From a virus (taxonomy: Duplodnaviria > Caudoviricetes), in the IMG/VR virus record IMGVR_UViG_3300045243_000055, positions 1-61,432 of that record: a stretch of 61,432 bases of DNA, one strand, 5' to 3'. Below are positions 3,984 through 54,011 of this stretch, one piece after another. A program made the translations under genes and the position numbers. Positions within the stretch are counted from its first letter, which is position 1. Each line of letters starts with the position of its first letter. The notes under the pieces are model-generated. The model was given only the letters and a program-made list of their open reading frames with translations. It was not told where the DNA came from and did no database searches.

Positions 3984-6900
3984 TTTTTGCCGCCCTACTC
4001 CTGCTGGGGTTCTGTGGCGTCGCCGAGGCCGCCTGTCCTGCTGTGCTGACCGACTGTCCGAACATGAACGCCAACGCCGGCTCGTTTGGCGGTGAACTCA
4101 AGGGCCCGGTCAAGGCGACCGGAGGCACGACGCTGCGCGGATTGTCGGATCGCGTTGCCGACACGCTGAACGTGCTCGACTTCGGTCCAGGCGGTGCGGT
4201 GGTCGATCGCACCGGGGTCAGCGATACCTCGGCGGCGATCCGAGCGGCGGTCGCTGCCGCCTGCGCGGCCGCGCCGGTCAAGTCGGTGTTCTTCCCGCCC
4301 GGCACCTACATGATGGATACCCTGGTCACCATCCCTGCCAACTGCCATCGCCTGACGATTTATGGTGAGCCTGGGACTGCCATTATCAAGGGCACGGCAA
4401 CCAACGCCTCGAACCCGATGCTGTTTAGCGCCACTGGCATCGACCACCTGAGATTCATCGGACTGAACTTCGATGGCAACTCTGCGGTGTCCACCAACAT
4501 CAGGGGGTTGATTGTCATCGCCGCCCCGATGGTCGGACCCGAGTTCGATCATGACGTTTTCACCAATGTGCGTGGCACCGCCATCTGGGCGGTCGGCGGC
4601 GGAGGATTGACGGGCCGCAATGCCACCATCCTTAGCTTCGGGGACACCACGATAACGCTGACTGCCCCGGTGCCTGGACTTAAAGCAGGGGCCTATATCA
4701 ATGGGTGGATCGAAGCCGATTATTACCTGACCGACGTTTCTGGTGTCACGCTCACCCTGTCGAAGCCAAGCGATCAGACGAATTTCGCCAATTCGCTATT
4801 CAGGTTCACCCCGTCCTTCGTGACGAGCGCCGACGCCTTCACCGGCGATCTGACGCTGCTGACTGCCGACACTACCGGTCTGGCTGTCGGACAGGTCTTG
4901 GAATTTCCCGGTTCCAGATGCCTTGTGAGGGGCACCCGAATCACGGCTGTGGCAACCAACGCCTCGGTGACGATCGACCAGACGCCAGTATGCAAGATAC
5001 CCAGCGGCTCGGCCATCGCCTCCGCCGCCGGCATCGCCGAACTCAAGATCACCAATAGCAAATTTGAACGGATCGGCGATGGTCTGCGCACCGCCGGCAG
5101 CGCCACCTACACCACATCAGGGACCACGGCAGCGGGGTCGAAGACCATCACCTTCAACTGCGTCTCCACCGGATGTGGGCGGGTTGGTTTGATCCCTGGC
5201 GATTTGACGGCGGCGAGCGGTTTGCCGGCCGGCGTGCCGGTCAATGATCTGGTCATCGACGGGCCTGTGCCGAACAACACCGCCTCGACCTACACCGTCA
5301 CGCTGAAGGCGCCGGTCACCCAGACCATTGCTGCCGGCACTCCGATCCCGTTCGCGGTCGGCGCCAGTTCCGGCAACGGCTATCCGCTCTGGTATGCGTT
5401 CGGTGGCTGGTTCGCCAATACCAACAGCCTGATCGCCAACAACTATTTCGGTCACTCGTGGTCGTCGCCGCTGTTCTTTCTGAACACTCAGGGCCTGACG
5501 CTGAGCCACAACACCTACCGCGTGGACTTTCAGGAGTTCCAGCTACCCACCATCGCGCCATCCGCTTGCATTGCAGCGGCATCAAGCATCGACCTGACGA
5601 TCGACGGCGATGTGTGCTCCGGCGCCACCGGCAACGGTATCGAGGCCGACAACAATATCAACTTCAAGATCATCAACATGTCGTCCACCCGCAACGGCAC
5701 GAACGGGTTGTTCTTCTGTGGCGGCCGCAATGTGCAGGTGGTCGGTGGCAATTTCAGCAACAACGCCCAGTGGAGCAAATATCCCTTGGCGCAGCAGCCA
5801 GATCCTAATTACGCATCGAATGGTATCACGCTCGGCGGCTCGTGCTCCTATGCCCAGAGAGGAACCATCTCCGACGTCGCATTCACCAACGTCAGCGCCA
5901 GTGACTATCAGGCAACCCCCACGCAGAACCACGGCGTCGCGCAATGGAACCGGAATGCCACTATCAACAACCTGACCTTTGGCCAGATGAGCCTCGTGGG
6001 AAATTTGGGCTCGCCATACGATCCGCTGATTGATCCCAACCCGCCGGTGCCGCCTCCCGGCACCGACAACCGGCTGATTAACCCCTGTGCCAAGCTGGCG
6101 CAGGGCACCGAGGGCGCGGCGGTGATACCGGGCGGCAACTTCTATGTCACGGATGGTTGGCTGGCAGCAGCCACGCCGGCCAACGTCAAATACCAGCGCA
6201 CCAACACGCCGTTGACCGGTTGTGGAACAGCAATCACCGCGACGGTGCTTACTCAGTACACGCCGACCGCGACGCAGTTCAGCCGCCTAGAGCAGGGTAT
6301 GCAGGCGGCCGATCTGGTGGACCTGAAAGTCGGCAAGCCGGATGCGAAGCCGCTGATCTTGGATTTCTGCGCGGTCGCCTCGACGGCCGGCGACTATCCC
6401 TGGACGGTCTTTAACGGCTTCGCCCCGCGTCCGCGATCCTATGCCGGCATCTTCACCATTGTCGCGCCGAATGTGCCGCAGTGTTACTCGTTCTCGTTCC
6501 CCGGCGATACCGTGCAGGCGTTCAGCCAAGTCGCGACCACTTTCGCGCTGTTCCTGTTCTTCGACATGGGCAGCGGATCGAACTGGCAGACCTCGACCTG
6601 CAATAGCTGGGTAGACGGCAACGCATTGTCCTGTTCCTCGGCGATCGGACTGCAAACGCTGCCAGTCGGTCAGACCATGACCATCTCGTCGGTGCGGCTC
6701 TATCCCGCTGCCGTCGACTCGCCCTGGAAGCCACGCACCGACAGCGCAGAGCTGGCGCTGGCGCAGGAATACTACACAAAGAGCTTTCCGCAGGGCACCG
6801 CGCCGGCACAGAACGCCGGGATCACCGGCGCATTCTGCGTGCAGAATAAGACGCCCGGCGATACGCCGTCATTCCTGTGGAGCTTCCCACAGCAGATGTG

Positions 6901-8285: not shown

Positions 8286-10096
8286 TGATGACGCTGCTCG
8301 GCCATCGCGTGGCGAGCGACTACCGTGCGCCGGTCAGGCTCGACGGTCATATCAGCTACGGCCAGTCCTGGCGCTCCAATGCGTTCTATGACTTCCGCAC
8401 TTTCGGACTGAACAACGAGGCGCCGATCCCGTTCATGGTGTCGAGCCTCGGCGCGTTTCTCGGTCCCGGCCCGATGCCGAACAGTGCCGGGATCAGCCTG
8501 ACCAGCCTGCCGACCGGCACGACCAACTACGCACCCAGCGACGTGTTCTCCATCGGCCGCACGGCCATCGCGGCGCTGCAACTCCTGCGCTTCCGCGATG
8601 GGGTGATCGTGCTGCCGCCTACCTTGGAGATGTGCACGGCCTTCCCTGGCTCGACATGGCACAGCGGGCTCGGCGGAGGTCTCGCGCCGGGATCCAACTT
8701 CGTCGGCTCGATCGACGGCACGACGCTGACCGTCACCAGCTTGACGTCTGGGTATGTCGCCGGCGGCCAGATGGTGATCGCCGCTGGAGCGAACGCGCAG
8801 ACGCGGGTCTATGCGAACCTGAGTTCGACGCGCTCGAGGGAAGCAGCGGAAAGCCTGCTCGCTGACAACGACGACGATCTGGACGTGCAGCAATTGGACC
8901 CCGGCGGGGTCGGAATCTACCAACTGAACTTGAGCTTCACGTCGCTGCCGGCGCAGTTCACCGGGACCAACCCGGCTGCGTCGTTCACCGCATCATCGAG
9001 CTACGGCGTGATGACCGTGACCGACATTGCCTCGGGATCGCTGGCCGCCGGTCAGGGTATTTCCGGCGGTCAGCTTCCGGTGGGCGCGATCTTCCAAAGC
9101 CAACTGAGCGGAACGCCTGGCGGCCCCGGCACCTATCTGACCGGCCTGCCGCAGACCGTGGCGTCGCAGCCGATGATCGGCAACGGGGTCTCGTGGAACA
9201 ACATGCTGCCGATCCTGGCCGCGGTGAAAACCGGCGCCGGGGTGTTCCCGACGCCGAGCTATACCGACGTGCTGTTCTCGTCGGTCGGCTACACGCAGGG
9301 CGGCGCGGCCGACGGCACGAATGCCGGGAAGGTGCAGGACCTCACCGACATGGTGGTCGAGTTCGACAAGCTGGCGCTCAATCCGGTGCCGCTGAAATTC
9401 TACTTCTGCCTGCCCGCCCAGGTCTCGAACCAGACGGTTTTCAACGACAGCAACCAGGGCACCTACACGTTCTGCCGCACCCACGCGCCGGGGATGGGCG
9501 GCACCTACTCAGGCCGCGTCTTCGCGACCGGGCCGAGCTATCCGTACCAGTTCAATGGCGGCGACAACATCCATACCGGCGACTACGGCAGCAGCCGGTG
9601 GGGCGAGGTCGAGGGCTACGCGCGGTGGCTGGTGCAGGACAAGGGGATCGCCTGGACGCCGCTCTGGCGGCCGCTGACAGGCGGCGCGATCACCCGGACG
9701 GGTCAGGTCATCACAGTGCCCTGGGCGCGTCCTGCAGGGCCGGATTTCGCCAGCGCGGTGATGTCCTGGCAGAGCGATCCGAACGACGGCATCAAGGTGC
9801 TGCCGCAATACGGCTTCCATGTCCGGCGCAACAACATCGAGCTAACCGTCGCGCCGACGATCAGCGGCATGAACGTACTGCTCGCCATCACCGAGACACT
9901 TCATGCCGGCGACACGCTCGAGGTCTCCTATGCGTGGTACGGCCCCGGTGGCCCGAACCCAGGCATCTCGTCAGGCGTCGGCGGCAACTTGGTGATGCGC
10001 GGGCCACCGAGCGTGCTCTATCCGCACGGGTGGCAGGGCGTTGCGAAAACGATCGACGCCTGGGCGTGGCCCTTCATTGAGACGATGACGCTCTGA
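8285..10096 (+). CDS. Virion-associated protein, possible SGNH-like esterase/fibre
   Basis: SYGQS near N-terminus, QGG and DNIH motifs reminiscent of SGNH/sialate O-acetylesterase folds; repeated TLTVT..SG beta units. Confidence 0.45.
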   Translation: MMTLLGHRVASDYRAPVRLDGHISYGQSWRSNAFYDFRTFGLNNEAPIPFMVSSLGAFLGPGPMPNSAGISLTSLPTGTTNYAPSDVFSIGRTAIAALQLLRFRDGVIVLPPTLEMCTAFPGSTWHSGLGGGLAPGSNFVGSIDGTTLTVTSLTSGYVAGGQMVIAAGANAQTRVYANLSSTRSREAAESLLADNDDDLDVQQLDPGGVGIYQLNLSFTSLPAQFTGTNPAASFTASSSYGVMTVTDIASGSLAAGQGISGGQLPVGAIFQSQLSGTPGGPGTYLTGLPQTVASQPMIGNGVSWNNMLPILAAVKTGAGVFPTPSYTDVLFSSVGYTQGGAADGTNAGKVQDLTDMVVEFDKLALNPVPLKFYFCLPAQVSNQTVFNDSNQGTYTFCRTHAPGMGGTYSGRVFATGPSYPYQFNGGDNIHTGDYGSSRWGEVEGYARWLVQDKGIAWTPLWRPLTGGAITRTGQVITVPWARPAGPDFASAVMSWQSDPNDGIKVLPQYGFHVRRNNIELTVAPTISGMNVLLAITETLHAGDTLEVSYAWYGPGGPNPGISSGVGGNLVMRGPPSVLYPHGWQGVAKTIDAWAWPFIETMTL

Positions 10097-24400: not shown

Positions 24401-25757
24401 GGGAGGGGTTGCGGGGGTGGCCGAGGCGGCAGGGTCGGAAGCTTCGTCATCGTTCGCTTCTCGTCTCAGTCCATCGGCTACTCCACTTGTTGCGTGTCTC
24501 AGCCATCACTCGCTCCTGCCTTATCGTCCATCGACAAACACCGCGAGTTCGTTCTTCACGACTGACAGCGCGGCATCCACAATGTCCATGACAAAGGGAT
24601 CGAACTCGTGCCCGTCTGATGGACGGCCATGCCGACGGTCGAACGCCGCGTAATAGCAGCGCCAGCGTAGGTTATCCGGGTGGCTGCGACCCATGTCGGG
24701 AACCCGCTGAATATCAGCCTCCTTAGCCATTGGCCGCTCCTGCGCGGTTCGACGGGTTCTTGCGTGGACAGTCCGGCCGCTCGCAGTCCTTGTTTGCACC
24801 CGGCGGACAGATGCAGCCGACCGGCACCAGTGGCACCATCGGTTGAAACGGCTGCTGTATCGGGATGTGATTCTCTCGCCACCAGGGCGGATTACCAGTC
24901 ATCGGTCGCTCCCCGATGCACCGTAAACAGCACACATCTTTCTGCTCGGTCATCGCTCGCTCCTGCTGTCATACGGCGGCAGCCATTTCCTCAATCTCCT
25001 CGATGCAATCGGACATGCCAGCTTGTGCCCATGAATTAGCAGACAGGTGCTTAATCACCACATCGTTGCAATCGGATAGCCAGGAGTGGAGGACGGCAGC
25101 AGCATCGAGAAGCGCCTGCCGCCTCGCTTCTTGCAATGCATCGCGCTCAGCCATCGCTCGCTTCTGCCCGCGTGCGCTTCCATTCCAGATACGCGCGATC
25201 AGCAGCGGTCGGTTCGGGCGGTAGAGACGCCCGGCACTTGGCACACCGGAGCGAGACGTGGTTGCTGATCGCGCCACAATCCAGACAGAGGATCTGCGGG
25301 CCATTAGGTATCAGATGCACCATCGGTGTCCTCCTCCATCAATCTGCAATCCGCCGGGCGCGGTCGCGCCAGCGCCTCGCGATCTGCACGGCACGGTCGT
25401 GCTCATCGGCCACTTCTTCAATCGGCAGCCGCGCGATCCGGCGGTAGGCTGCCAACTCGACGCGGTCGATGCCGAGCCGCAGGAGCGCGCCGAGCAGGAC
25501 GCCCACCCCCAGCGCGGCGAGCAGCGCGAGCGGCATCCAGACGGCGAAGCTGATGCACGTCTCAGCCATCTCTCGCTCCTGCGTCCGTCGTCTGTTGCCG
25601 GAGACCGAGGCGCTTCATCAGGTAGTAGTCGTGCGTGGCGTGGCATAGCTCCCAGCCGGCAGCACCCGCCTCGTTGAGCGCGACTAGATCACGGGGGATC
25701 AACTGATACTCCCATCGGATCGCCAGCGGTTCGCTACGGTATTGCCACATGGGATGA

Positions 25758-25973
25758 TCAACCATCGCTCGCTCCTGGCTTCTGATCCAGCGGCTTGGTG
25801 CGCAGCATGACCTTGCGGCGGTTGGCGCCACACGCCGGGCAATGAATGGTCTTGATGTGCGCGACCCAGGTGGCGATCGGGACCATGCACGGCTGCCAGT
25901 CGTCCCACCAATGGCTGCACGCCTTGCACGAGCACCATAACGGCTCCCAGGTCGGCTGAGGCCAGTCATCCAT
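25758..25973 (-). CDS. Small Zn-ribbon protein (paralog of 21251..21472)
   Basis: CKACSHWW...CPACG; ends PLDQKPGASDG. Confidence 0.65.
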   Translation of the reverse strand: MDDWPQPTWEPLWCSCKACSHWWDDWQPCMVPIATWVAHIKTIHCPACGANRRKVMLRTKPLDQKPGASDG

Positions 25974-26049
25974 AAGATCGCCTGCGGGTCATTACTGTCT
26001 CATCCCTGTAGACTCGGCCACCTCTGCGCAGTGCCGCTTGGTGCGCAGG

Positions 26050-26194
26050 TAGTTGCGTTGCGTAGCGTAGCGTAGCGCTGCGGAGCGAAGCGCTGCGAGG
26101 CGTGGCGATGCAATGCGGAGCGGGGTGTGGCGCTGCGATGCGTGGCGATGCGGAGAGGCGCGTAGCGGGGCGGCGCGACGCCGAGCGCTGCGGG
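26050..26194 (-). repeat. Phased pentamer array C (sense NN-CGC x28 plus one degenerate unit), candidate guide RNA
   Basis: Plus strand GCG-NN at exact 5-nt period from 26055; 24 of 28 triplets are GCG. Confidence 0.9.
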
Positions 26195-26204
26195 GTTGGG
26201 GATG

Positions 26205-26714
26205 TCATTTTCCTACTCGGCGTGGGCTGAGGCTTATCATCCACTCCACCGCGTTGAACGCCGGCAGGTCGTTCGACGTGCCGCGCGCGACCTTCTCGAT
26301 GCGCCGATGCGTCGCCCTCGCCAGAGCGTCGCGGGCGATCTCGCGGACAATCGAGTCGGTCGCAAAGCGGGCCTGCTGTTTGAGGTCAAGTTGCTCAAGC
26401 TCGACCACATCGGCCTGCCGCGCGCCAGCCGACAGCTTGTTGCGTGCCCCATTGAGAAACCAGTCGCGCTGCCGGACGACGATCTCGGCGTCATTCAGCC
26501 GGTAAAGGGCAACGGCGGGAGCGATGCAGATCCACACCTGGGCATGGTCACGTTCCAAGATCTTTCGCGCCGACGTGAGGTAGGTCGTGCGAGGCGTGAC
26601 GGTGATCCCGGCAATCGCCGTCAGGTCTTTGTAGTCGATCAGGGCTTCTTTCTCGTGCTGAGCGAGATACCTGACCAGACTGGCCGTGGTCTCCGATCGT
26701 TCAAAGGCTTTCAT
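26205..26714 (-). CDS. 169-aa hypothetical protein, candidate accessory factor of the RAMP/pentamer locus
   Basis: Lies between arrays B and C; N-terminal IDYKDLTAIAG..YLTSARKILE may be a winged helix. Confidence 0.7.
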   Translation of the reverse strand: MKAFERSETTASLVRYLAQHEKEALIDYKDLTAIAGITVTPRTTYLTSARKILERDHAQVWICIAPAVALYRLNDAEIVVRQRDWFLNGARNKLSAGARQADVVELEQLDLKQQARFATDSIVREIARDALARATHRRIEKVARGTSNDLPAFNAVEWMISLSPRRVGK

Positions 26715-26727
26715 GTGATCCCTTCAG

Positions 26728-26862
26728 GCGTTGCGTTGCGGGGCGGTACGTTGCGAGGCGATGCGCCGAGACGCGGGGCGTTGCGGCACGTGGCGATGCG
26801 TTGCGGGGCGTTGCGCTGTGGAGCGCTGCGTCGCGATGCGGTGCGTGGCGGTGCGCCGAGGC
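26728..26862 (-). repeat. Phased pentamer array B (sense NN-CGC x27), candidate guide RNA
   Basis: Exact 5-nt period; 22 of 27 triplets are GCG on the plus strand; fills the intergenic gap. Confidence 0.9.
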
Positions 26863-26866
26863 GACC

Positions 26867-27454
26867 TCATAGGCTCATGTTCTGCCATTCGATCTTGGTG
26901 ACGCGGAAGCGGCCGTTGGACCCACCGTTGCCGGCGCGGTAGCGGCCGATGCCAACGATCATCCCCGCGCTTTTCAGGTGGTCCTCAAAGACCTCCTGCG
27001 TGATGATGTCGTCAACGATGGTGAACTCGGCGACGCCGTGCCACTTGTCGAACACCGGGAAGCGACGCTTGACCCGCTTTCCCGATCCACGGACCCCGTC
27101 GGCATTGGCATTGATCTTCACCATGACCGCATTAGCCGGCGTCAGCGGCTTGCCGTTGCTGATCGGCATGTCGGAACCACAGATAACACCGCTGGTGAAG
27201 AAGCTCTTGTAGGTAGCGCCGCGTCGGCCCGGGATTTTTTGCCCGAGCTTCTGCGCAGCCAGATCGACGCATTGTTTCAGCGCCATCGCCGGGACGCAGA
27301 CCTGCCCCTTGTCGTTGACGGTGCATTTGCTGCGCCAAGTGCGCTCGTCGTAGTCGTCATGCGACTCGCGTTCCAGCTTCGGCTCTTCATGCTGGGCTGA
27401 TTGGCTGTAGGGCGAGCCAGGGATGTTCTCTAGGTAGGCTTTACAGATTCGCAT
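26867..27454 (-). CDS. Stand-alone Cas7/RAMP-like protein (195 aa)
   Basis: Start MRICK with GGAGAG RBS; VCVPAMALKQC resembles the Csm3/Cas7 IPGSSLKG motif; C-terminal G-rich loop GIGRYRAGNGGSNGRFRV. Confidence 0.7.
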   Translation of the reverse strand: MRICKAYLENIPGSPYSQSAQHEEPKLERESHDDYDERTWRSKCTVNDKGQVCVPAMALKQCVDLAAQKLGQKIPGRRGATYKSFFTSGVICGSDMPISNGKPLTPANAVMVKINANADGVRGSGKRVKRRFPVFDKWHGVAEFTIVDDIITQEVFEDHLKSAGMIVGIGRYRAGNGGSNGRFRVTKIEWQNMSL

Positions 27455-27469
27455 TGTTCTCTCCATTGG

Positions 27470-27604
27470 ACGTTGCGTTGCGAAGCGGCGAGCGGCGTTG
27501 CGATGCGCGGAGCGGCGGAGCGTTGCGTTGCGATGAGTAGCGAAGCGCTGCGATGCAGTGCGGGGCGGGGCGTTGCGATGCGCGGAGCGGCGCGACGCGG
27601 AGGC
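27470..27604 (-). repeat. Phased pentamer array A (sense NN-CGC x27), candidate guide RNA
   Basis: Exact 5-nt period; 19 of 27 triplets GCG, others GAG/ACG/GCA; directly upstream of the RAMP gene RBS. Confidence 0.9.
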
Positions 27605-27612
27605 GTCAGGTG

Positions 27613-27858
27613 TCACACGATCCCCCGGCTGCCGCGCACGGCGGCGAGTTCGAGGCGCAGTCGCTCGAGCGCGCGGCTGTAGCTGAACTCCTTGAGCCAG
27701 ACGGTGAACAAGTGCCCGCCGGCGTCGGGGTGGCGGTACTCGGCGAGTGCGTTGCTGCGCGGTTTGATCGCGGTGAAGCCGAGCCGGTCGAGTTCGGCGA
27801 GCAGTTCAGGCTGGCTGATCGCGCCGCGCCGCAGCGCGCGTTCGGTGTAGCTCAGCAT
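27613..27858 (-). CDS. Hypothetical protein
   Basis: MLSYTERALRRG start overlapping the end of the GcrA-like gene. Confidence 0.55.
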   Translation of the reverse strand: MLSYTERALRRGAISQPELLAELDRLGFTAIKPRSNALAEYRHPDAGGHLFTVWLKEFSYSRALERLRLELAAVRGSRGIV

Positions 27859-28304
27859 CCCGCATGGTCCTCCCGGCGGTCGCGCACCTTGACGTAGGAC
27901 AGCCGCGCATGGTCGGCGCAGTAGGACTTCCCGAGATCGCAGACCGCGTCGCAGAAGCGGAACGCGCGGGTGCCAGGCTCGCCGATCGGCCAGCAGCAGG
28001 TGATGGTCCGGAAGTGGGGCGGTGTCTTCGGAGCGGGCGGCTCCGGGGAAGGGGAGAGGGGTGCCAGTGTCGTCTTCGGCTGTCGCTTGGCGGGCGTCTC
28101 CGGAGGCGGCTTCGGTTTCTTGGTGAACTCGCCGCGCGCCGGCAGGCCGAGGCGGTTGCGCTTGCCGATCACGGCGTTCTTCGACACGCCCAGCAGCCTG
28201 CCGATCTTGCCCTGGCTGTTGGCGTATTTGCGGCCGTCTGCGGTGCGCTCGTACCACAGCGTCACCAGCCGCGCTTCCCGTTCGTCGCTCCACGGGTCGG
28301 CCAT
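27852..28304 (-). CDS. gcrA: GcrA-like cell-cycle regulator
   Basis: WSDEREARLVTLW..IGRLLGVSKNAVIGKRNRLGL and C-terminal CCWPIGEP..FRFC..SYCADH. Confidence 0.85.
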   Translation of the reverse strand: MADPWSDEREARLVTLWYERTADGRKYANSQGKIGRLLGVSKNAVIGKRNRLGLPARGEFTKKPKPPPETPAKRQPKTTLAPLSPSPEPPAPKTPPHFRTITCCWPIGEPGTRAFRFCDAVCDLGKSYCADHARLSYVKVRDRREDHAGC

Positions 28305-28549
28305 CAGTGCGCCTTCCTGCTGGTGCGCGGCGATGTCGGGGTGCCCATCTGGCGCACCGCCGTCGCGTGGGCGAACAGCATCACTGCGGCCTCGGCCTCG
28401 GTCATCACCGCCAGGACGCGGGTGCCGAGCGTGTCGGGCAGCAAGTCCACCGCTGCCTGCCAGATCGCCATGTGCGTCGCTGGATCCTGCGCACCGTCGA
28501 GCGGGAAGACGTCGCTGTCGACCAGCACCACCAGTGCGAGCTTGCTCAT
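28304..28549 (-). CDS. Hypothetical protein
   Basis: Overlapping start/stop junctions in the leftward operon. Confidence 0.5.
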   Translation of the reverse strand: MSKLALVVLVDSDVFPLDGAQDPATHMAIWQAAVDLLPDTLGTRVLAVMTEAEAAVMLFAHATAVRQMGTPTSPRTSRKAH

Positions 28550-28811
28550 GGCCGTGCTTCGCCTCGCGTGCGGGTGGCAGGCCTGGGCGGGGTCCGCTCG
28601 ACCGCCTGGACGACCTCGACCGCCGGCCAGTGGATGCGCCCGACCTCGGGCAGCGTCGCCGGCAATTCCGGCTCGGCGCCGTTGGTCGCCGGCACGGGCA
28701 ATTTCAGGCCCTCGGTGCCGCGTTCTTCCAGCAGCTTGCGCAGGTGGTCATAGACCGCCGCCGCCGGCAGCGCGTCGTCGACCGGGACGCGGACACGCAT
28801 CGTGGCGAATT

Positions 28812-29966
28812 TCACGTTAGCTCTCCCTGCTTGTTCTTCGGGTCGGTGCGCGCCCACGACGCGGCGACGAACGGTTTGACGTGCTGCTCGTACAGCGCCT
28901 TCCGCTGGCGTTGCAGAAACTTGATCTGCTTCTGCACTTCGGGCTCGTCGACGATCGCCAAGTGCTCCTGGCGCGTCGCGGTGTTCAGGAACCGATCGCC
29001 GAGCGCCTTGGCGCCGGCCTCGATGCGCTGCTCGACCGACAGCGGGGCATCGTCTTCGGGCTGGCCATCCGGCGGATCGGGTGTGGACCCTGGTGGCGGC
29101 GGCTCTTCCCCTGGTGGTCCGTCGTCGGGCGGGCTGTCCTCTGGCGGTGGCGGCTGCGAAGCTGGCGGTCGTGATGTGCTGGCGGTGGCGCTGGTCTCGC
29201 CGCGCGCCCAGGCCGCGATCGCCGCGCCTGTCGCCTCGTCCAACGGTCGTTCCAGGGAGATGATCGGCTTCAGCGCCGGCAGCAGGGCTTTGATCGGCCG
29301 AGGCACGCCGGGGTGGCGCGGGTCTTCGAGCATCAGCGACAGCGTCATCGCCCAGGGAATGTCCACGCCGCAGATCGGCGTGAGGCCCTGGTCTACCGGC
29401 ACCATCTTCTTGCGGCCCTCGTCGTCGACCGTCTCGACCATGGCCATCTTGCGCTCGGCGCCGCAGCACAGGATCACCGGCATGTTCAACTGGTAGAGCC
29501 GTTCGCGCATCCGCTTGTGCTGCGTCTTCGGCTCGATCCAGGCGAGCATCTTGGTTGATTCCAGCCGCGACAGATTGCCGCGCGCCATGCGCAGATTGAT
29601 CTCCTGGTGCCACTCGAGCAGCCCGCCGGGCCCATTGTGCTCGTGCATGAAGTTGTCGATCACCAGCACCGCCGCGCCGTTGCGCTGCGCCTGCTTCGCT
29701 GCTTCCTCGAACACGATTGGCCGAAACGGCTCGTGCAGGTTCAGGTGTTCGAAGCGAAATTCGTCCGCGTAAAACGCCGCCCGGTTATTGTCCGTGTCCG
29801 CAACGAACACTCTGCCGTCTGGTCCGGCCATGCCGCGTGCGAGACGTAGGGCGCTGTACGTTTTGCCAACGCCCGGTGGCCCCGAGATCATAATCAGCGG
29901 CGCTGCCTTCGAGCGGACAGCCGGGCGGTACGTAAAGTCCTTCTGGATGGCGGCGCCGTCAGGCAC
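28812..29966 (-). CDS. AAA_24/Sak4-like recombination ATPase
   Basis: Walker A GPPGVGKT, Walker B VLVID; adjacent to exonuclease. Confidence 0.8.
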   Translation of the reverse strand: MPDGAAIQKDFTYRPAVRSKAAPLIMISGPPGVGKTYSALRLARGMAGPDGRVFVADTDNNRAAFYADEFRFEHLNLHEPFRPIVFEEAAKQAQRNGAAVLVIDNFMHEHNGPGGLLEWHQEINLRMARGNLSRLESTKMLAWIEPKTQHKRMRERLYQLNMPVILCCGAERKMAMVETVDDEGRKKMVPVDQGLTPICGVDIPWAMTLSLMLEDPRHPGVPRPIKALLPALKPIISLERPLDEATGAAIAAWARGETSATASTSRPPASQPPPPEDSPPDDGPPGEEPPPPGSTPDPPDGQPEDDAPLSVEQRIEAGAKALGDRFLNTATRQEHLAIVDEPEVQKQIKFLQRQRKALYEQHVKPFVAASWARTDPKNKQGELT

Positions 29967-29971
29967 CTGCG

Positions 29972-30937
29972 TCAGCCACCGAACTGACCGGCTTCGATCA
30001 GCCGCTCGATGAACTTCGTGTCCTCGATGGCGCGGCCGTAACCGCCGGCCTTGGCGCTCTCCCACTGCCGCACGATCCACGGCGGCGGCAGGATCCACTC
30101 GGTCTCGCGCGGGTAGCTGGGCCACGCCTGCTCAGTCGGCCGGCCAGCGTCGAGGGCGGCACGGGTGGCTGCCATGCACTGCACCCAGATGGCGCGCGCG
30201 GCTGCGGCCTTGGCCTCACCGACATCGACCGCGACGGGATCGAGCGCGAACACGCGGATGGCGAACGGCGCCGAGGTCTCGACCACGACGAACAACATCC
30301 CGTCGGGGACCTCGCCGTCGCGCAGATAGCTGGCACCGCGTGGATACATCGCCGCCTGCAGGTCGGCCCCGAACTCGAAGCACTGCCGGCCCCAGCGCTC
30401 CGGTGTGGCGAGCCCGCCGGTGGTCTTGAGGTCGAGTAGCGGGCCGGCGGGATCGTCGTGGAGCCAATCGACGCGAGCGCGCGCCCAGTGGTCATCCTCC
30501 TGCCAGACCAACGTCTGCTCGGGCTTGCCGTGGGTGAACAGGCCGGTGCGCGCACGGAAGTTCTCGAGCGCTTCTACGACGCGACGGGTGCTGTCGTAGG
30601 CCCTGGTCTTTAGCGGGATGCGGCCTGCCGCCAGGGCGGCGTCGCGCATCTCCTTCGCATCCTTGGTCCGGTAGCTGTCGAACGGGATGTGCTCGACCCG
30701 GTCGCTGCCTTCGAGGAACAGCGCGTGGGCAGCGGTGCCGACGTCCATGTCCTCATCGCCGGAGGACGGACCCTCGGCGACCGAGCCGCCGAGGCGCGGG
30801 TGCTCAGCGTAGGCGTGGGCGGGCGACGCCTCGATGATCTTGCGGGCGATCGAGCGCGACAGGGACGGCACCGGCGCCGGATCGGCGTGGTACTCGTGGT
30901 CGGGCATCGTGTAGATGCCGGGCTCGGTGACGGCCAT
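29972..30937 (-). CDS. PD-(D/E)XK exonuclease (RecE/ExoVIII-like)
   Basis: EYHADP..LSRS, GTAAH, RARVDW, LDLKTT, LQAAMY. Confidence 0.85.
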   Translation of the reverse strand: MAVTEPGIYTMPDHEYHADPAPVPSLSRSIARKIIEASPAHAYAEHPRLGGSVAEGPSSGDEDMDVGTAAHALFLEGSDRVEHIPFDSYRTKDAKEMRDAALAAGRIPLKTRAYDSTRRVVEALENFRARTGLFTHGKPEQTLVWQEDDHWARARVDWLHDDPAGPLLDLKTTGGLATPERWGRQCFEFGADLQAAMYPRGASYLRDGEVPDGMLFVVVETSAPFAIRVFALDPVAVDVGEAKAAAARAIWVQCMAATRAALDAGRPTEQAWPSYPRETEWILPPPWIVRQWESAKAGGYGRAIEDTKFIERLIEAGQFGG

Positions 30938-30959
30938 GGAATTTCCCGCACGGTGCGGC

Positions 30960-31016
30960 CACAAGTGTGAAGCAGAGCTTCACGCTGTCAAGGGGCGATG
31001 TGAAAACACAGTTCAC
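30960..31016 (-). promoter_or_regulatory. Leftward early promoter with two operators (30967-30983, 31000-31016)
   Basis: Minus strand CCCCTTGACAGC-GTGAAGCTCTGCTTCAC; plus strand GTGAAAACACAGTTCAC. Confidence 0.75.
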
Positions 31017-31360: not shown

Positions 31361-32032
31361 TTATGCCGAAGCCGCCACGGCCCCTTCGTCAGAGTTGCCA
31401 CTGTCGGTACGTTTCCTGCCTCTCCGCCGGACGGTTGGTTTGCGAATCTTTGCGGCCAGAAGCGGGTGACGGGTCACCAAGACAGCCCGCAACTCGGGAT
31501 CCAGTGAGTCCAGATCGCCGGTAAGCAGGAAGTCCAGCCGGCACCGATAGCGGCTGGCGAACTCGGCCGCCTGCTCGAGGTCGGGGCGAATGCCGCCAGC
31601 TTCCCAGCGGGCATAGTCGGCCTCGCTCACGCCCAGCAGTTCGGCGGCGACCGCCTGGGTGTCGGCCGTGGTCTCACGCACCCAGCGCATCCGGTGGCCG
31701 AGCCGGATCGTCTCGTGCGGTCTGACCCCTTGCACGCTGACCCTGTTGTTCTCGGTGTTGGCGGTGCCGGCGATCAGCCGGTCGAGGCTGCACCGGGTGA
31801 TCCGCTGTAGCTCGATCAGCACCGCGAAGGGCGGCTCGACCGCGCCGCGCTCGTAGAACGACAGCCGCTCCGGCGAGATGCCGATCATCACGGCGAACTG
31901 CCGCAGCGACAGTTTGGGGCGGCCGATGTCGGCACCGTGCGCCAGCCTAAGCTCGCGCAGACGTCGCCCGAAGATCTCCCGCGCCCGCTGCCCGTCGCCC
32001 TTCAGAAGCAAAAGCGTTCTCCCGTTGTTCAC
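31361..32032 (-). CDS. CI-like repressor with two tandem XRE HTH domains
   Basis: LSLRQFAVMIGISPERLSFYERG and TQAVAAELLGVSEADYARWEAG; divergent from the Cro-like gene. Confidence 0.8.
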   Translation of the reverse strand: MNNGRTLLLLKGDGQRAREIFGRRLRELRLAHGADIGRPKLSLRQFAVMIGISPERLSFYERGAVEPPFAVLIELQRITRCSLDRLIAGTANTENNRVSVQGVRPHETIRLGHRMRWVRETTADTQAVAAELLGVSEADYARWEAGGIRPDLEQAAEFASRYRCRLDFLLTGDLDSLDPELRAVLVTRHPLLAAKIRKPTVRRRGRKRTDSGNSDEGAVAASA

Positions 32033-33718: not shown

Positions 33719-34507
33719 TCAGGCGGCCTTACGGAGTGGCGCCCGCTTGTTTGTCACAATCTCCCCGTTCTCATACGGCTCCCCGCTAATCCGCATTCCA
33801 TTCGCGATCGCCTTCTTGACCTTCTCGGTATGGCCTTCCTGCATCGCGACACGGACGTTCACGCTATCGCCGGAATTGACCAGCCACGCAATCACCTTGC
33901 GCAACTGGTCTTTGTCCTCACGATTATACCCGCTCCACTCCGCAACACGCCGTGCCAGACCATAGACACTCGGCCCCTGACGACGGGCGATCAGCAACAA
34001 CTCGTCTGGGGGGAACAACCCGGCAAGGGCGCTGATCGCTGGCGCGAGACGAGACGGCAAGTCGCCTGCCGCGCCACCCAAGGCATGAACTTCCAGCCAC
34101 TGCTTGCCGGTGAGCTTCTTGCTGGTTTCGTTGATCTCACGGAAGATTTTCGTCAGATATTCGGCGCCGACTTCAATAACCAGGGCCGGGATCTGGGCGA
34201 ACTCGGGGTTCTTCAGCTTTTTCAGGCCATACACCGCAAAGCGGCGATGCCCCTCGATGATCATATAGCGCCCGTCTTCCGTCTTGTTCACCAGAATCGG
34301 GTAGTAGAGGCCGATGTCGGTGATCGAGGCCAACAGCCCCTTGATGTCGGCGTCCTCCCCGCGTCCGCGTGGGTTGAGCGGGTTCTTGTCGATCTGATCC
34401 AGCGGGATGTGGTGCACGTTGTAGTCCTTCATTGGATGAGCCTCCATCTGCGACCGGGCGAATATTCGTCCGACCGGCGCGATCACGCGCGACTCGTCAC
34501 GAGTCAA
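33719..34507 (-). CDS. ParB/Srx N-terminal domain protein (true start probably near 34432-34447)
   Basis: IPLDQIDKNPLNPR..LLASITDIGLYYPILV..IIEGHRRF. Confidence 0.8.
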   Translation of the reverse strand: MTRDESRVIAPVGRIFARSQMEAHPMKDYNVHHIPLDQIDKNPLNPRGRGEDADIKGLLASITDIGLYYPILVNKTEDGRYMIIEGHRRFAVYGLKKLKNPEFAQIPALVIEVGAEYLTKIFREINETSKKLTGKQWLEVHALGGAAGDLPSRLAPAISALAGLFPPDELLLIARRQGPSVYGLARRVAEWSGYNREDKDQLRKVIAWLVNSGDSVNVRVAMQEGHTEKVKKAIANGMRISGEPYENGEIVTNKRAPLRKAA

Positions 34508-51769: not shown

Positions 51770-51968
51770 TCCGTCTGCCGGACGTGATCTGGGCCGGTGC
51801 GCAATGGCTGCCGCTGCTCGGCGAGTCGGATGAACTGCGCGTCGGCCTCGCCATGACGGCGCGCTTCTACGGCGACGGGATCGCCTGGGCGATGTCGCTG
51901 CCGCTGCCCGAACTGATGCGCTGGAACCGGCTGATGCGGCAGGTGCACGACGCTGAACGGGGGCGGTG

Positions 51969-54011
51969 ATGTCAGGCAGCACCGGCGGCTTCTCGGTCAC
52001 CATCACCGCCAAAGATGGCGCGTCGAAAACGATCGACGACATCAACAAGCGCCTCGACGCGATGGCGAAGAAGATGGCCGCCACGTCGGCCCAGGGTGCC
52101 AAGGTCGGCGCGGACACGTCGGGCCTGACGCGGCTTACCGAAGGCTTCAAGAGCACCGCCACCAGTTCCGCCGACTTCTACCGCTCACTCGACAAGATCG
52201 TGCCGGCGATGTCGGCGCTGACCGGCGCCACGACGCTCGCCGGCATGGCGGCGCTGACCCGTCGCTTCGCCGAGCTAGGCCAGAGTACTTCCAACATCGC
52301 CTACCAACTCAACACGCCGGTCGAAAAGCTCGGCGCGCTGCGCGGCGCGGTGCGCCTCGTCGGGGTCAGCACGTCCGCCCTCGAAAGCTCGATGGCGGGG
52401 CTGCAGAAAACCATGGGCGACGCGGCGTGGGAGCGCAGCGGCACGGCCGTCGCTGCATTCAAGCAACTCGGTGTCGATCCCGGCAGCGCCGCCCAGCATC
52501 GTTTCCGTCAGGTCGCCGATGTGCTGGGCGACGTGGCCGAGGCGATCAAGGGCATGGACGCCCCGACGCAGGCCCGCACGCTTGAGTCGCTCGGTATCAG
52601 CACCGAGATGCTGCCGGCACTGAAGAACGGCCGCAAGGCGTTCGAGGACCTGCAGAACGAGGCCTTAAAGACCGGCGGCGTGATGTCCAAGGACATGGTG
52701 AAGCACGCCGAGGACATGAACCACGCTTGGGTCAATCTGTCGGAGACGATCGAGGGCGTCGGCAACCGGCTGGTGGATCACTACGCGCCAAAGGTGACTG
52801 AAATCCTCAAGCGCACCTCAACGTGGATCCAGAACAACCAGGACCTCGCCGATAGCATTGCCAAGATCGGCATCGCGGTCACCGGGCTGGTGGCGATCAA
52901 GCCGGCACTCTGGGTGCTGCGTCTGCTCGGTCTGGCAAACCCGGTGACGGGAGCCATAGTGGGGACCGCCGCAGGGGCAGCCGCAGCCTACGAGACAGGA
53001 GCCAAGGGCGCCCGTGCTGCCGACCTCGGCTTCGAGCCGTCCGCCACGCCGGGCTCGATGGACGAGTTCGGCAACGTGTTCTCGTGGACCAATCCGAAGA
53101 CGGGCGAGACGCTGACTGCCGCCGAGATGGACAAGCGCCTCGAGGAACAGAAAGAGCGGATCGACAAGATCGAGAGGGAGCGCCAGGGGACACCCGGCCC
53201 GCAGTCGAGCAATGCCGGCCCTGGCACGCGACAACTTGCCTCCAACGACTCGTCGATGCCGCAGATGAGCGGCGAGACTGGCCCAGGTGGTCGCACCTAC
53301 CAGCAATGGGACCCGAAGGACTGGTATCACCCCGGCGGCAGCACGGCAGCCCAAGGCGGGCAGATCACCGGCGACACGCAGGCCGACTCGGCGATCAGCA
53401 AGGCGGAGTTCACCCGCAAGATGATGCCGCTCGCCGAAGCCGCGAGCGCACAGACCGGCGTGGATGCCCGGATCATCTTCGCACAGGCGGCGCTTGAGTC
53501 AGGCTGGGGGCGGCGCGCACCGCAGAACAATTACTTCGGCATCAAGGGCAAGGGCGCGTTCCTGATGACCAAGGAGTTCATCAACGGTCGCATGGTCGAC
53601 GTGCCGCAGAGCTTCGCCGGCTACGGCTCGATGGAAGGCAGCGTGCAGGGGTATGCCGACCTGATTAAAAACAGCCGGCGCTACACCGCATTCCGTACCG
53701 CCAGAGGGGTTGATGCGCAGATCGACGAGCTTGACCGCTCCGGCTACTACACCGACCCGAACTACAAGGCGAAACTCCGCACCGTCGTGTCCAGCCTGCC
53801 CGCGCCAGGGCCGCCGGCGCTGGCCTTTCAGCCCCCACCAACCGGCGCGGCGGGAGGTCGCCAGAACGGCGGCGGACAGGCCGGCCATGTCCGGGTGGAC
53901 GTGAACCTGCGTGGCGCGCCGCCCGGCACCTCGGCGCAGGTCGATACCAGGGGCGCCGTGCGCGCCGCACCGCCACGCATCGAAACCGCCATGAGCGCAG
54001 GTGTCGCCTGA
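51969..54011 (+). CDS. Tape measure protein with C-terminal GH73/FlgJ-like muramidase domain
   Basis: Ala-rich helical body; AQAALESGWG..NNYFGIK..GYYTDPNY. Confidence 0.85.
   Translation: MSGSTGGFSVTITAKDGASKTIDDINKRLDAMAKKMAATSAQGAKVGADTSGLTRLTEGFKSTATSSADFYRSLDKIVPAMSALTGATTLAGMAALTRRFAELGQSTSNIAYQLNTPVEKLGALRGAVRLVGVSTSALESSMAGLQKTMGDAAWERSGTAVAAFKQLGVDPGSAAQHRFRQVADVLGDVAEAIKGMDAPTQARTLESLGISTEMLPALKNGRKAFEDLQNEALKTGGVMSKDMVKHAEDMNHAWVNLSETIEGVGNRLVDHYAPKVTEILKRTSTWIQNNQDLADSIAKIGIAVTGLVAIKPALWVLRLLGLANPVTGAIVGTAAGAAAAYETGAKGARAADLGFEPSATPGSMDEFGNVFSWTNPKTGETLTAAEMDKRLEEQKERIDKIERERQGTPGPQSSNAGPGTRQLASNDSSMPQMSGETGPGGRTYQQWDPKDWYHPGGSTAAQGGQITGDTQADSAISKAEFTRKMMPLAEAASAQTGVDARIIFAQAALESGWGRRAPQNNYFGIKGKGAFLMTKEFINGRMVDVPQSFAGYGSMEGSVQGYADLIKNSRRYTAFRTARGVDAQIDELDRSGYYTDPNYKAKLRTVVSSLPAPGPPALAFQPPPTGAAGGRQNGGGQAGHVRVDVNLRGAPPGTSAQVDTRGAVRAAPPRIETAMSAGVA

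What the first reader, a model, noticed from the sequence alone, without database searches (positions are those of the whole stretch)
26020..27612. Candidate non-CRISPR RNA-guided system: lone Cas7/RAMP-like gene with three phased CGC-NN pentamer arrays
Seen: on the minus strand the order is array A (27604-27470), a 195-aa gene (27454-26867), array B (26862-26728), a 169-aa gene (26714-26205), array C (26194-26050). Each array has 27-28 units at an exact 5-nt period with no indels. The triplet is nearly constant (65 of 82 units are sense CGC, the rest single-base variants such as CTC/CGT) and the dinucleotide varies freely. The arrays fill the intergenic gaps. Established: the protein's VPAMALKQC and terminal GIGRYRAGNGGSNGRF resemble the conserved motif and G-rich loop of Cas7-group RAMPs (Csm3/Cmr4-like), which polymerise along RNA at a fixed step. 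No cas1/2/3/5/6/10 gene or CRISPR array is recognisable in the genome. Inference: each protomer binds one constant triplet and presents the NN bases, so the arrays would be guide RNAs with a discontinuous code. From memory (unverified), this resembles reported viral 'VIPR' systems with GGY/NN repeats; the CGC/NN scaffold here would be a different variant. The locus lies in the repressor-controlled leftward early region, consistent with a role in phage competition or host gene silencing.
Basis: partly seen in the sequence, partly recalled or inferred. Interest (0 to 1): 0.95.

Follow-up and report, generated by a model that had tools for sequence, protein, structure and literature searches.

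The report
Phage VIPR system with CGC guides
This soil phage carries a VIPR system, the CRISPR-like RNA-guided DNA silencer first described in 2026, built from a small Cas7-like protein, a helper gene and three guide arrays written in five-base steps that use C-G-C instead of the published G-G-pyrimidine as the fixed letters.

Summary
Three phased 5-nt arrays (27, 27 and 29 units; 65 of 83 triplets are CGC) fill the gaps around a 195-aa and a 169-aa gene on the minus strand. They are the only such arrays in the 61-kb phage genome.

The 195-aa protein has a Cas7/Csm3-like fold. It is homologous to the experimentally studied Vipr of Escherichia phage SUSP1 (same PHROG; hhalign 97.9%, E 4.9e-13).

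All 15 relatives examined (7 viral, 8 MAG loci) carry sense-strand C-G-C/NN arrays next to the gene. In the closest relative the genes are about 90% identical, yet the NN letters are no more alike than shuffled ones.

So this is a VIPR system, a kind published in 2026 preprints. CGC/NN fits their "YNNNG" alternative class. The scan has already met CGC-type VIPRs on other DNA.

Local features:
- no structured 3' tail, but a (CGC-AA)2-3 cap;
- arrays packed from stop codon to ribosome-binding site;
- a helper gene unrelated in sequence to Vap1;
- a G-loop residue (R171) that tracks the second fixed base across clades.

Transcription, protein binding and targets are not shown. Every target search found nothing above chance.

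The parts
27470..27604 (-). vrRNA array A: 27 units of [CGC]NN, ending in CGC-AA CGC-AA CGT, directly upstream of vipr
26867..27454 (-). vipr: 195-aa minimal RAMP (Cas7-like fold) with the G-loop GIGRYRAGNGGSNGRF; homolog of SUSP1 Vipr
26728..26862 (-). vrRNA array B: 27 units, between vipr and the accessory gene
26205..26714 (-). vap-like accessory gene: 169 aa, predicted N-terminal winged-helix domain plus helical C-terminus; syntenic in all 7 viral relatives
26050..26194 (-). vrRNA array C: 29 units, ending in CGC-TA x3 and CGC-AA x2
26024..26048 (-). 7-bp GC-rich hairpin (CTGCGCA, 11-nt loop, TGCGCAG) directly after array C; possible 3' end of the unit; no T-run
   Evidence: read from the sequence; not called by the terminator scan

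Best explanation
The locus is a VIPR (Viral Interference Programmable Repeat) system of a myovirus-like soil phage whose relatives lie in Alphaproteobacteria. It comprises vipr (195 aa), a vap-like accessory gene (169 aa) and three vrRNA arrays.

Proposed mechanism, by homology with SUSP1 VIPR:
- The minus (gene-sense) strand is transcribed, most likely as one operon RNA.
- Vipr protomers polymerise along each array, one per 5-nt unit.
- Each protomer sequesters the fixed C-G-C triplet and exposes the two variable bases.
- The resulting filament reads double-stranded DNA non-contiguously (two bases read, one skipped) and silences genes of a competing mobile element.

Shown here: the anatomy, the RAMP fold, homology to a studied Vipr, conservation of arrays with constant triplets and fully turned-over NN, and 5'-to-3' polarity of the arrays along the sense strand.

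Inferred: transcription, processing, filament formation, the skip rule, the DNA target and the role in competition.

A local twist is inferred from covariation. The G-loop residue that is D177 in SUSP1 is R171 here, and it tracks base 2 of the triplet across clades (R with G, Q with A). The SUSP1 thumb arginine R138 is F132 here. The repeat-recognition pocket therefore appears re-wired.
For: Fold:
- AlphaFold2 model has pLDDT 84.1 and pTM 0.80.
- Foldseek found 139 PDB matches at E<=0.001. The listed top rows are Cas7-group RAMP proteins or the complexes that contain them (type VII Cas7, Csm3, Cmr4, gRAMP).
- VIA-align best matches: Z 11.9 to Csm3 9g9a_D (rmsd 4.1, 159 aligned) and Z 11.8 to Csm3 6ae2_B (rmsd 2.9, 151 aligned).

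Homology to a studied Vipr:
- The SUSP1 ORF 28474-29061(-) of KT454805.2 carries 12 of the 13 residues named in the cryo-EM preprint.
- It hits phrog_4652 at E 1.4e-96. The window protein hits the same PHROG at E 8e-11.
- The family profile A4 aligns to SUSP1 Vipr with probability 97.9%, E 4.9e-13, 169 columns.

Arrays:
- They are the only phased CGC arrays in the genome.
- All 7 viral loci have sense-strand CGC arrays next to the gene, 6 of them on both sides. All 8 MAG loci have them on both sides, including proteins only 44-46% identical.
- With an information-based caller the window reads C90 G81 C91, then mixed bases.
- Against the closest relative, vipr and vap are 90.8% and 88.8% identical in DNA. 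The best ungapped NN identity is 0.38-0.56, against shuffled means of 0.44-0.53.

Strand and polarity:
- NN=AA at the last three units in 25, 21 and 20 of 41 arrays, against 1, 4 and 5 of 41 at the first three.
- Sense RNAs fold no better than shuffles (z +2.63, +1.38, +0.35). Antisense RNAs fold far more strongly (-73 to -81 kcal/mol; z -2.75, -0.87, -3.38).
- Sense CGC keeps G at position 2 and a pyrimidine at position 3 of the published GGY.
- In SUSP1 the GGT/NN units also lie on the vipr sense strand.

Context:
- G000 is a virus record with phage structural genes.
- No cas hit.

Covariation:
- R171 goes with G at triplet position 2 in 21 of 22 array-bearing loci with R.
- Q171 goes with CAC in 4 distinct loci, F171 with GAC in 1, and D with GGT in SUSP1.
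Against: - No target was found under any skip rule. This covers the phage's own genome, the other sequence held from carrier phages and the public collections searched. The targeting rule and the role are therefore untested for this clade.
- The canonical GGY motif is not met.
- There is no room for the structured 3' tail (pseudoknot) of SUSP1 vrRNAs, and no own promoter was detected (0 sigma-70-like sites in 25500-29000). Maturation must differ from SUSP1 or be absent.
- The accessory protein shows no sequence relation to Vap1 (hhalign probability 0.1%). Its fold matches are weak (no Foldseek row at E<=0.001).
- The covariation rests on few independent clades and has one exception (L034: R with CTT). 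In SUSP1, D177 contacts base 1, not base 2, according to passages of preprint 10.64898/2026.04.26.720927. The R171-G2 reading is therefore a hypothesis.
- The fixed-position percentages are inflated, because that caller demanded near-CGC triplets.
Confidence: 0.85

Rival explanations
1. The guide is made from the opposite (plus) strand, giving G-rich GCG/NN RNAs, closer in composition to the published G-rich vrRNAs.
For: Published vrRNAs are G-rich. No expression data exist for this locus (one search listed no RNA run). One relative (L007) has an extra array in the opposite orientation at 6203-6312.
Against: In 15 of 15 related loci the arrays have the C-G-C reading on the vipr sense strand, as GGT/NN does in SUSP1. 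GCG would place a purine at position 3, which the SUSP1 pocket excludes sterically according to passages of preprint 10.64898/2026.04.26.720927. The AA cap and the T-rich linkers give the arrays a polarity along the sense strand. Antisense RNAs are predicted to fold strongly on themselves, which is awkward for a guide held single-stranded.
Confidence: 0.06
2. The arrays are cis-acting leaders of the operon mRNA. Vipr coats them to control translation or stability of vipr and vap (autoregulation), and they are not trans-acting guides.
For: The arrays run from stop codon to ribosome-binding site with no promoter or tail of their own. No target was found.
Against: The NN letters turn over completely between phages whose vipr and vap are about 90% identical. 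All 16 dinucleotides are used. Relatives hold up to about 1 kb of arrays in several cassettes. This is the pattern of a variable cargo, not of a leader. The homologous SUSP1 system is a trans-acting DNA silencer (passages read).
Confidence: 0.05
3. The arrays are coding or an annotation artefact. For example, they could form an N-terminal extension of the 195-aa protein (ORF 26867-27616, 249 aa).
For: Open frames run through the arrays. Some database homologs are listed at 239, 292 and 307 aa.
Against: A perfect CGCNN array cannot contain a stop codon in any sense frame. There were 0 stop triplets in 5,590 array bases on the sense strand, against 82 on the antisense, so open frames there are automatic. 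The period is 5, not 3. Array lengths differ among relatives in 5-nt steps. Nearly all of the 120 homologs listed are 192-198 aa long; the exceptions are 239, 292 and 307 aa. All 22 aligned sequences start at the same methionine, which in the window follows a ribosome-binding site.
Confidence: 0.01

Closest known systems
Type II VIPR of Escherichia phage SUSP1 (Vipr + Vap1 + four vrRNAs). Sources: bioRxiv 10.64898/2026.04.26.720920 (Results and one Methods section read), 10.64898/2026.04.26.720927 (first part of the Results, of two, and passages read), 10.64898/2026.10.15.759431 (passages read).
   Same: Both have a 195-aa single-RRM RAMP of the same PHROG, alignable over 169 columns. In both, a phage carries the system, two genes sit on one strand, and 5-nt units of fixed triplet plus variable NN lie on the gene's strand upstream and downstream. 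Neither has cas genes.
   Different: - The fixed triplet is C-G-C, not G-G-Y.
- Arrays have 27-29 units, against 9-16 in SUSP1. The cryo-EM preprint says natural vrRNAs reach up to 30 repeats.
- There is no pseudoknot tail and no promoter of its own. Instead there is a (CGC-AA) cap.
- An array sits between vipr and vap.
- The accessory protein is unrelated in sequence to Vap1.
- Of the eight named repeat contacts mapped, R179 is kept (R173) and W178 stays aromatic (Y172). The other six differ, among them D177 to R171, R138 to F132 and H17 to about S19.
Published non-canonical VIPR repeats: NNNGG, YNNNG and NNNNG (Methods of 10.64898/2026.04.26.720920); GAC/NN, CAC/NN, WGT/NN and TGH/NN in 21 period-5 clusters (10.64898/2026.10.21.760802, passages).
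   Same: CGC/NN read as C-NN-C-G is an instance of YNNNG. Relatives that I fetched use CAC/NN and GAC/NN, as reported there.
   Different: The string CGC does not occur in the main text of any of the four preprints. Figures and supplements that may list it (Fig. S10A, fig. S17, data S4) were not available. I therefore cannot tell whether this clade is already catalogued.
CRISPR Cas7-group RAMPs (Csm3, Cmr4, type VII Cas7)
   Same: Best structural matches: Z 11.3-11.9, Foldseek E about 1e-7 to 1e-6. They share the RRM core, thumb hairpin and glycine-rich loop, and they polymerise along RNA at a fixed step.
   Different: There is no CRISPR array and no other cas gene. There is no sequence hit to any PDB chain at E<0.7 nor to PADLOC cas models. 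The step is 5 nt rather than 6.

Membership tests
VIPR | Vipr protein: small single-RRM RAMP with G-loop and thumb, homologous to characterised Vipr | tested here: met
   Cas7-like fold. Same phrog_4652 as SUSP1 Vipr. hhalign 97.9%, E 4.9e-13.
VIPR | Tandem 5-nt units, fixed trinucleotide alternating with hypervariable NN, next to vipr on its strand | tested here: met
   Found in 15 of 15 relatives. NN turns over completely against the closest relative.
VIPR | Canonical GGY fixed motif | tested here: not met
   The triplet is C-G-C (C90 G81 C91). It is compatible with the published alternative class YNNNG, so this does not exclude membership.
VIPR | Adjacent accessory (vap) gene with a predicted DNA-related function | tested here: inconclusive
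   A conserved 169-aa gene is syntenic in 7 of 7 viral loci. The model has a winged-helix-like N-terminus, but Foldseek rows are weak (best E 0.012). It has no relation to Vap1.
VIPR | Stands without CRISPR array or other cas genes, mostly in viruses | tested here: met
   Virus record. Phage structural genes. 0 cas hits in 58 ORFs. No long-period repeat.
VIPR | Invariable 3' tail after the repeat tract | tested here: inconclusive
   There is no room for a structured tail (13-15 nt to the next ATG) and no Rfam match. The 3' end is conserved as CGC-AA units. The P. fulva VIPR also lacks the pseudoknot (passage).
VIPR | vrRNAs expressed and bound by Vipr | not testable with these tools
   No RNA run was listed for this DNA.
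VIPR | Targets matching NN with one skipped base (xNN rule) | tested here: inconclusive
   No match above chance under skip 0-3. No true hit in the collection scans.
CRISPR-Cas class 1 (Cas7) | Association with a CRISPR array and further cas genes (Cas5, Cas6, large subunit, Cas1/2) | tested here: not met
   It shares the fold only.

The most novel reading that the evidence does not exclude
The CGC clade is a naturally orthogonal VIPR lineage with two distinguishing properties.

First, its repeat-recognition pocket is re-wired. G-loop position 171 reads base 2 of the fixed triplet: Arg with G, Gln with A. The SUSP1 thumb arginine is lost. Protein and repeat would thus form a simple, swappable code.

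Second, its long guides (27 to more than 50 units) are matured from the operon mRNA itself, without a promoter or structured tail, capped only by (CGC-AA) units. Its targeting rule or target class may differ from the SUSP1 rule.
Probability: 0.3. Interest if true: 0.55.

Novelty: new member of a known kind. Interest (0 to 1): 0.4.

Why it matters
VIPR is months old as a concept and has been characterised in only two clades (SUSP1 and P. fulva). This locus represents a large, uncharacterised branch from soil Alphaproteobacteria. It has 519 proteins at E<=0.001 in the 90%-cluster search. The wider family has 1,247 representative clusters.

The branch uses a different fixed triplet and different pocket residues. 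If the R/Q-171 to base-2 relation holds, it offers orthogonal Vipr-repeat pairs for multiplexed programmable silencing. It would also give a handle on how RAMP proteins read fixed RNA letters.

There is an annotation warning too. CGCNN arrays can never contain sense-strand stop codons, so gene callers extend ORFs through them.

Tried and rejected
**Target searches, all negative**
- Full-length arrays against the phage's own genome, skip 0-3: best 27-30 of 54-56, equal to order-shuffled guides.
- The 41 arrays of at least 12 units (of 54 called in eight phage records) against about 340 kb of those records, using 12-unit windows: mean best 17.7-18.0 of 24 for every skip rule.
- Exact 10-unit pattern in viral contigs: 0 hits.
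- Exact 11-unit pattern in metagenome contigs: 0 hits.
- A 9-unit seed in metagenome contigs gave 16 hits, about the chance number. All failed extension, with 6-14 of 36 matches outside the seed.
- A 14-unit pattern with up to 3 mismatches: 0 of 5 MAG genomes carrying relatives and 0 of 401 genomes of one such family.

**Expression**

**Vipr-Vap binding**
- Complex prediction gave no answer: score 0.01 against a mark of 0.32.

**Other searches without result**
- No sequence hit in INPHARED phages.
- No PDB sequence hit.
- No Pfam family above threshold.
- No Rfam family in the window or in four related loci.
- A single-protein scan of genome contigs found nothing. The alignment query then found 8 loci.
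- Two single-protein scans for other G-loop classes found no loci.

**Literature limits**
The VIPR type (I-VII) of this clade could not be looked up, nor whether CGC/NN is already listed.

**Rejected readings**
- The coding reading of the arrays was rejected (see rival explanations).
Full report
**1. Observation**

On the minus strand the order is as follows:
- the stop codon of a small upstream ORF (TGA at 27613-27615);
- array A (27604-27470);
- a 195-aa gene (27454-26867);
- array B (26862-26728);
- a 169-aa gene (26714-26205);
- array C (26194-26050);
- a 7-bp hairpin.

Of 83 triplets, 65 are CGC; the others are single-base variants (CTC 8, CGT 4, TGC 2, CAC 2, GGC 1) plus one CTA at the end. 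Only 15 and 13 nt, each containing a ribosome-binding site, separate arrays A and B from the next ATG.

These are the only phased CGC runs in the 61,432-bp record. Scores of 6 or more of 10 occur only at these three places on the minus strand. The plus strand reaches 5 at most. Twenty Markov-1 randomisations reached 4-6, against observed values up to 10.

**2. The protein**

- Pfam gives nothing above threshold.
- PHROGs gives phrog_4652, function unknown, at E 8e-11.
- No PDB chain matches by sequence.
- The AlphaFold2 model built on 22 homologs has pLDDT 84.1 and pTM 0.80. Its only very low-confidence stretch is the glycine-rich loop, residues 172-178.
- Foldseek finds 139 PDB matches at E<=0.001. 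The listed top rows are Cas7-group RAMPs: type VII Cas7, Csm3, Cmr4, gRAMP.
- The Foldseek-independent search gives Z 11.9 and 11.8 to Csm3, followed by further Cas7 proteins.

The RAMP fold is therefore supported.

**3. Link to published VIPR**

Four 2026 preprints in the held library describe VIPR.
- Of 10.64898/2026.04.26.720920 I read the Results and one Methods section.
- Of 10.64898/2026.04.26.720927 I read the first part of the Results (of two) and passages.
- Of the other two I read passages.

I fetched phage SUSP1 (KT454805.2). Its 195-aa ORF at 28474-29061(-) carries 12 of the 13 residues named in the cryo-EM preprint, so it is the studied Vipr. It is flanked by GGT/NN units on its own strand. 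It hits the same phrog_4652 at E 1.4e-96.

A narrow profile of the window's family aligned to it only over the G-loop (43.9%, E 2.4e-4). A broader profile of 46 family representatives aligned over 169 columns with probability 97.9% and E 4.9e-13. Homology to a bona fide Vipr is thus shown by sequence, not only by fold.

**4. Relatives**

The protein has 519 relatives at E<=0.001 in the word-indexed search. The 120 listed are 64-100% identical and almost all 195 aa long. The profile finds 1,247 representative clusters at E<=0.001.

All seven IMG/VR loci carry phased CGC arrays on the gene's strand, six of them on both sides, and some hold about 1 kb of arrays. All eight MAG loci carry C-G-C/NN arrays on both sides, including proteins only 44-46% identical. 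These MAGs are labelled Acetobacteraceae, Xanthobacteraceae, Roseomonas, Hyphomicrobiales, Rhodobacteraceae and others.

In relatives with several arrays per gap, the cassettes are separated by conserved T-rich linkers of about 22-27 nt.

Across 1,118 called units, positions 4 and 5 use all four bases and all 16 dinucleotides. The fixed-position percentages of that call are inflated by the caller. The unbiased figure for the window is C90 G81 C91.

Against the closest relative, vipr and vap are 90.8% and 88.8% identical in DNA. The NN strings are no more alike than shuffled ones. This is the behaviour expected of guide cargo.

**5. Strand and polarity**

- NN=AA is strongly enriched at the last three units (25, 21 and 20 of 41 arrays) and not at the first three (1, 4 and 5 of 41). 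All three window arrays end this way.
- Sense-strand RNAs are predicted to be no more structured than shuffles. Antisense RNAs are strongly structured.
- Sense CGC keeps the G at position 2 and the pyrimidine at position 3 of GGY.

Together with SUSP1's arrangement, these points favour the sense strand as the guide strand. No sigma-70-like promoter lies in 25500-29000, and there is no room for one. Co-transcription with the genes, followed by processing or protection, is therefore inferred.

**6. Accessory gene**

The 169-aa gene is syntenic in 7 of 7 viral loci at 46-92% identity. It has 126 relatives and no Pfam or PHROG family. It shows no relation to SUSP1 Vap1.

Its model (pLDDT 78.1) has an N-terminal helix-strand-helix-helix-strand-strand unit typical of winged-helix domains, followed by helices. 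Foldseek gives only weak rows, mostly winged-helix regulators, with a best E of 0.012. 'DNA-binding helper' is a reasonable guess, not a result.

**7. Pocket residues**

Two independent alignments map SUSP1 contacts to the window protein as follows:

| SUSP1 | Window protein |
|---|---|
| D177 | R171 |
| W178 | Y172 |
| R179 | R173 |
| R138 | F132 |
| E71 / M72 | M57 / A58 |
| C173 | V167 |

H17 falls at or next to S19. That region aligned differently.

Across 28 loci plus SUSP1:
- R at 171 goes with G at triplet position 2 in 21 of 22 array-bearing loci. These comprise CGC in 17 and GGC or mixed C/G-G-C in 4. The exception is L034, with CTT.
- L058, which also has R at 171, showed no array.
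- Q goes with CAC in four distinct loci (a fifth, L040, duplicates L039).
- F goes with GAC in one locus.
- D goes with GGT in SUSP1.

Position 1 (C or G) does not track this residue. The loci fall into few clades, so this amounts to a handful of independent events. It is a hypothesis about a specificity determinant, not a demonstration.

**8. Context**

The record is a virus record. Terminase, portal, capsid, sheath, tube and baseplate genes lie on the plus strand. A leftward block holds a CI-like repressor, an exonuclease VIII-like gene, a GcrA-like gene and the VIPR locus. PHROGs was run on 53 of the 86 filtered ORFs. No cas model hit.

**9. Targets**

None was found; details are under Tried and rejected. 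The published rule (two bases read, one skipped) is therefore neither confirmed nor contradicted for this clade.

**10. Verdict**

This is a genuine VIPR system of a CGC/NN branch. The kind is known from 2026 preprints, non-GGY repeats are published, and the original preprint's YNNNG class covers C-NN-C-G. The scan has already reported a CGC-type VIPR in another phage (e1-5358369). No look-alike of this protein was on record by sequence.

I rate it a new member of a known kind. Its variant-level features are the tail-less AA-capped arrays packed inside the operon, a different accessory gene and a re-wired pocket. These are worth a bench test.

Noticed in passing
window 27852-28304 (-): A phage-encoded GcrA-like cell-cycle regulator (Pfam PF07750, E 2.2e-19) lies just upstream of the VIPR locus. 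It fits an alphaproteobacterial host. A small ORF ending at 27613 overlaps its 3' end in another frame.
   Followed up: no
window 26867-27616, 25966-26244 and 26724-26888 (-): Spurious ORFs run through the arrays, because CGCNN cannot encode a sense-strand stop (0 stop triplets in 5,590 array bases). Database homologs of 239, 292 and 307 aa are probably such over-extended calls.
   Followed up: partly
G001 (record of L001) 9579-9778: The upstream array of the closest relative contains a 13-unit block repeated twice in tandem. This suggests that arrays grow by internal duplication. Window array A also repeats the run CG CG AT AA.
   Followed up: no
L002 4700-5080 and 5850-5880; L004 3220-3250, 3545-3575, 3765-3790, 5570-5590: In relatives with several arrays per gap, the cassettes are separated by conserved T-rich linkers of about 22-27 nt that follow the CGC-AA cap. 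They could be processing or termination signals. They have no Rfam match.
   Followed up: partly
L007 6203-6312 (-): A 22-unit CGC/NN array lies in the opposite orientation to the vipr operon and is followed by a clear hairpin. It may be a convergent, stand-alone guide gene.
   Followed up: no
window 51966-54011 (+): The tape-measure protein carries an endolysin-like domain at residues 478-609 (phrog_3513, E 1.6e-36).
   Followed up: no
window 31361-32032, 29972-30964 and 33719-34507 (-): A CI-like repressor, an exonuclease VIII-like gene and a ParB-like gene lie on the same strand as the VIPR locus. No integrase was seen among the 53 ORFs scanned.
   Followed up: no
L034, L035, L059-L062: Other Vipr clades fetched for comparison use CTT/NN, GAC/NN and GGC or mixed C/G-G-C fixed triplets on the sense strand.
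   Followed up: partly
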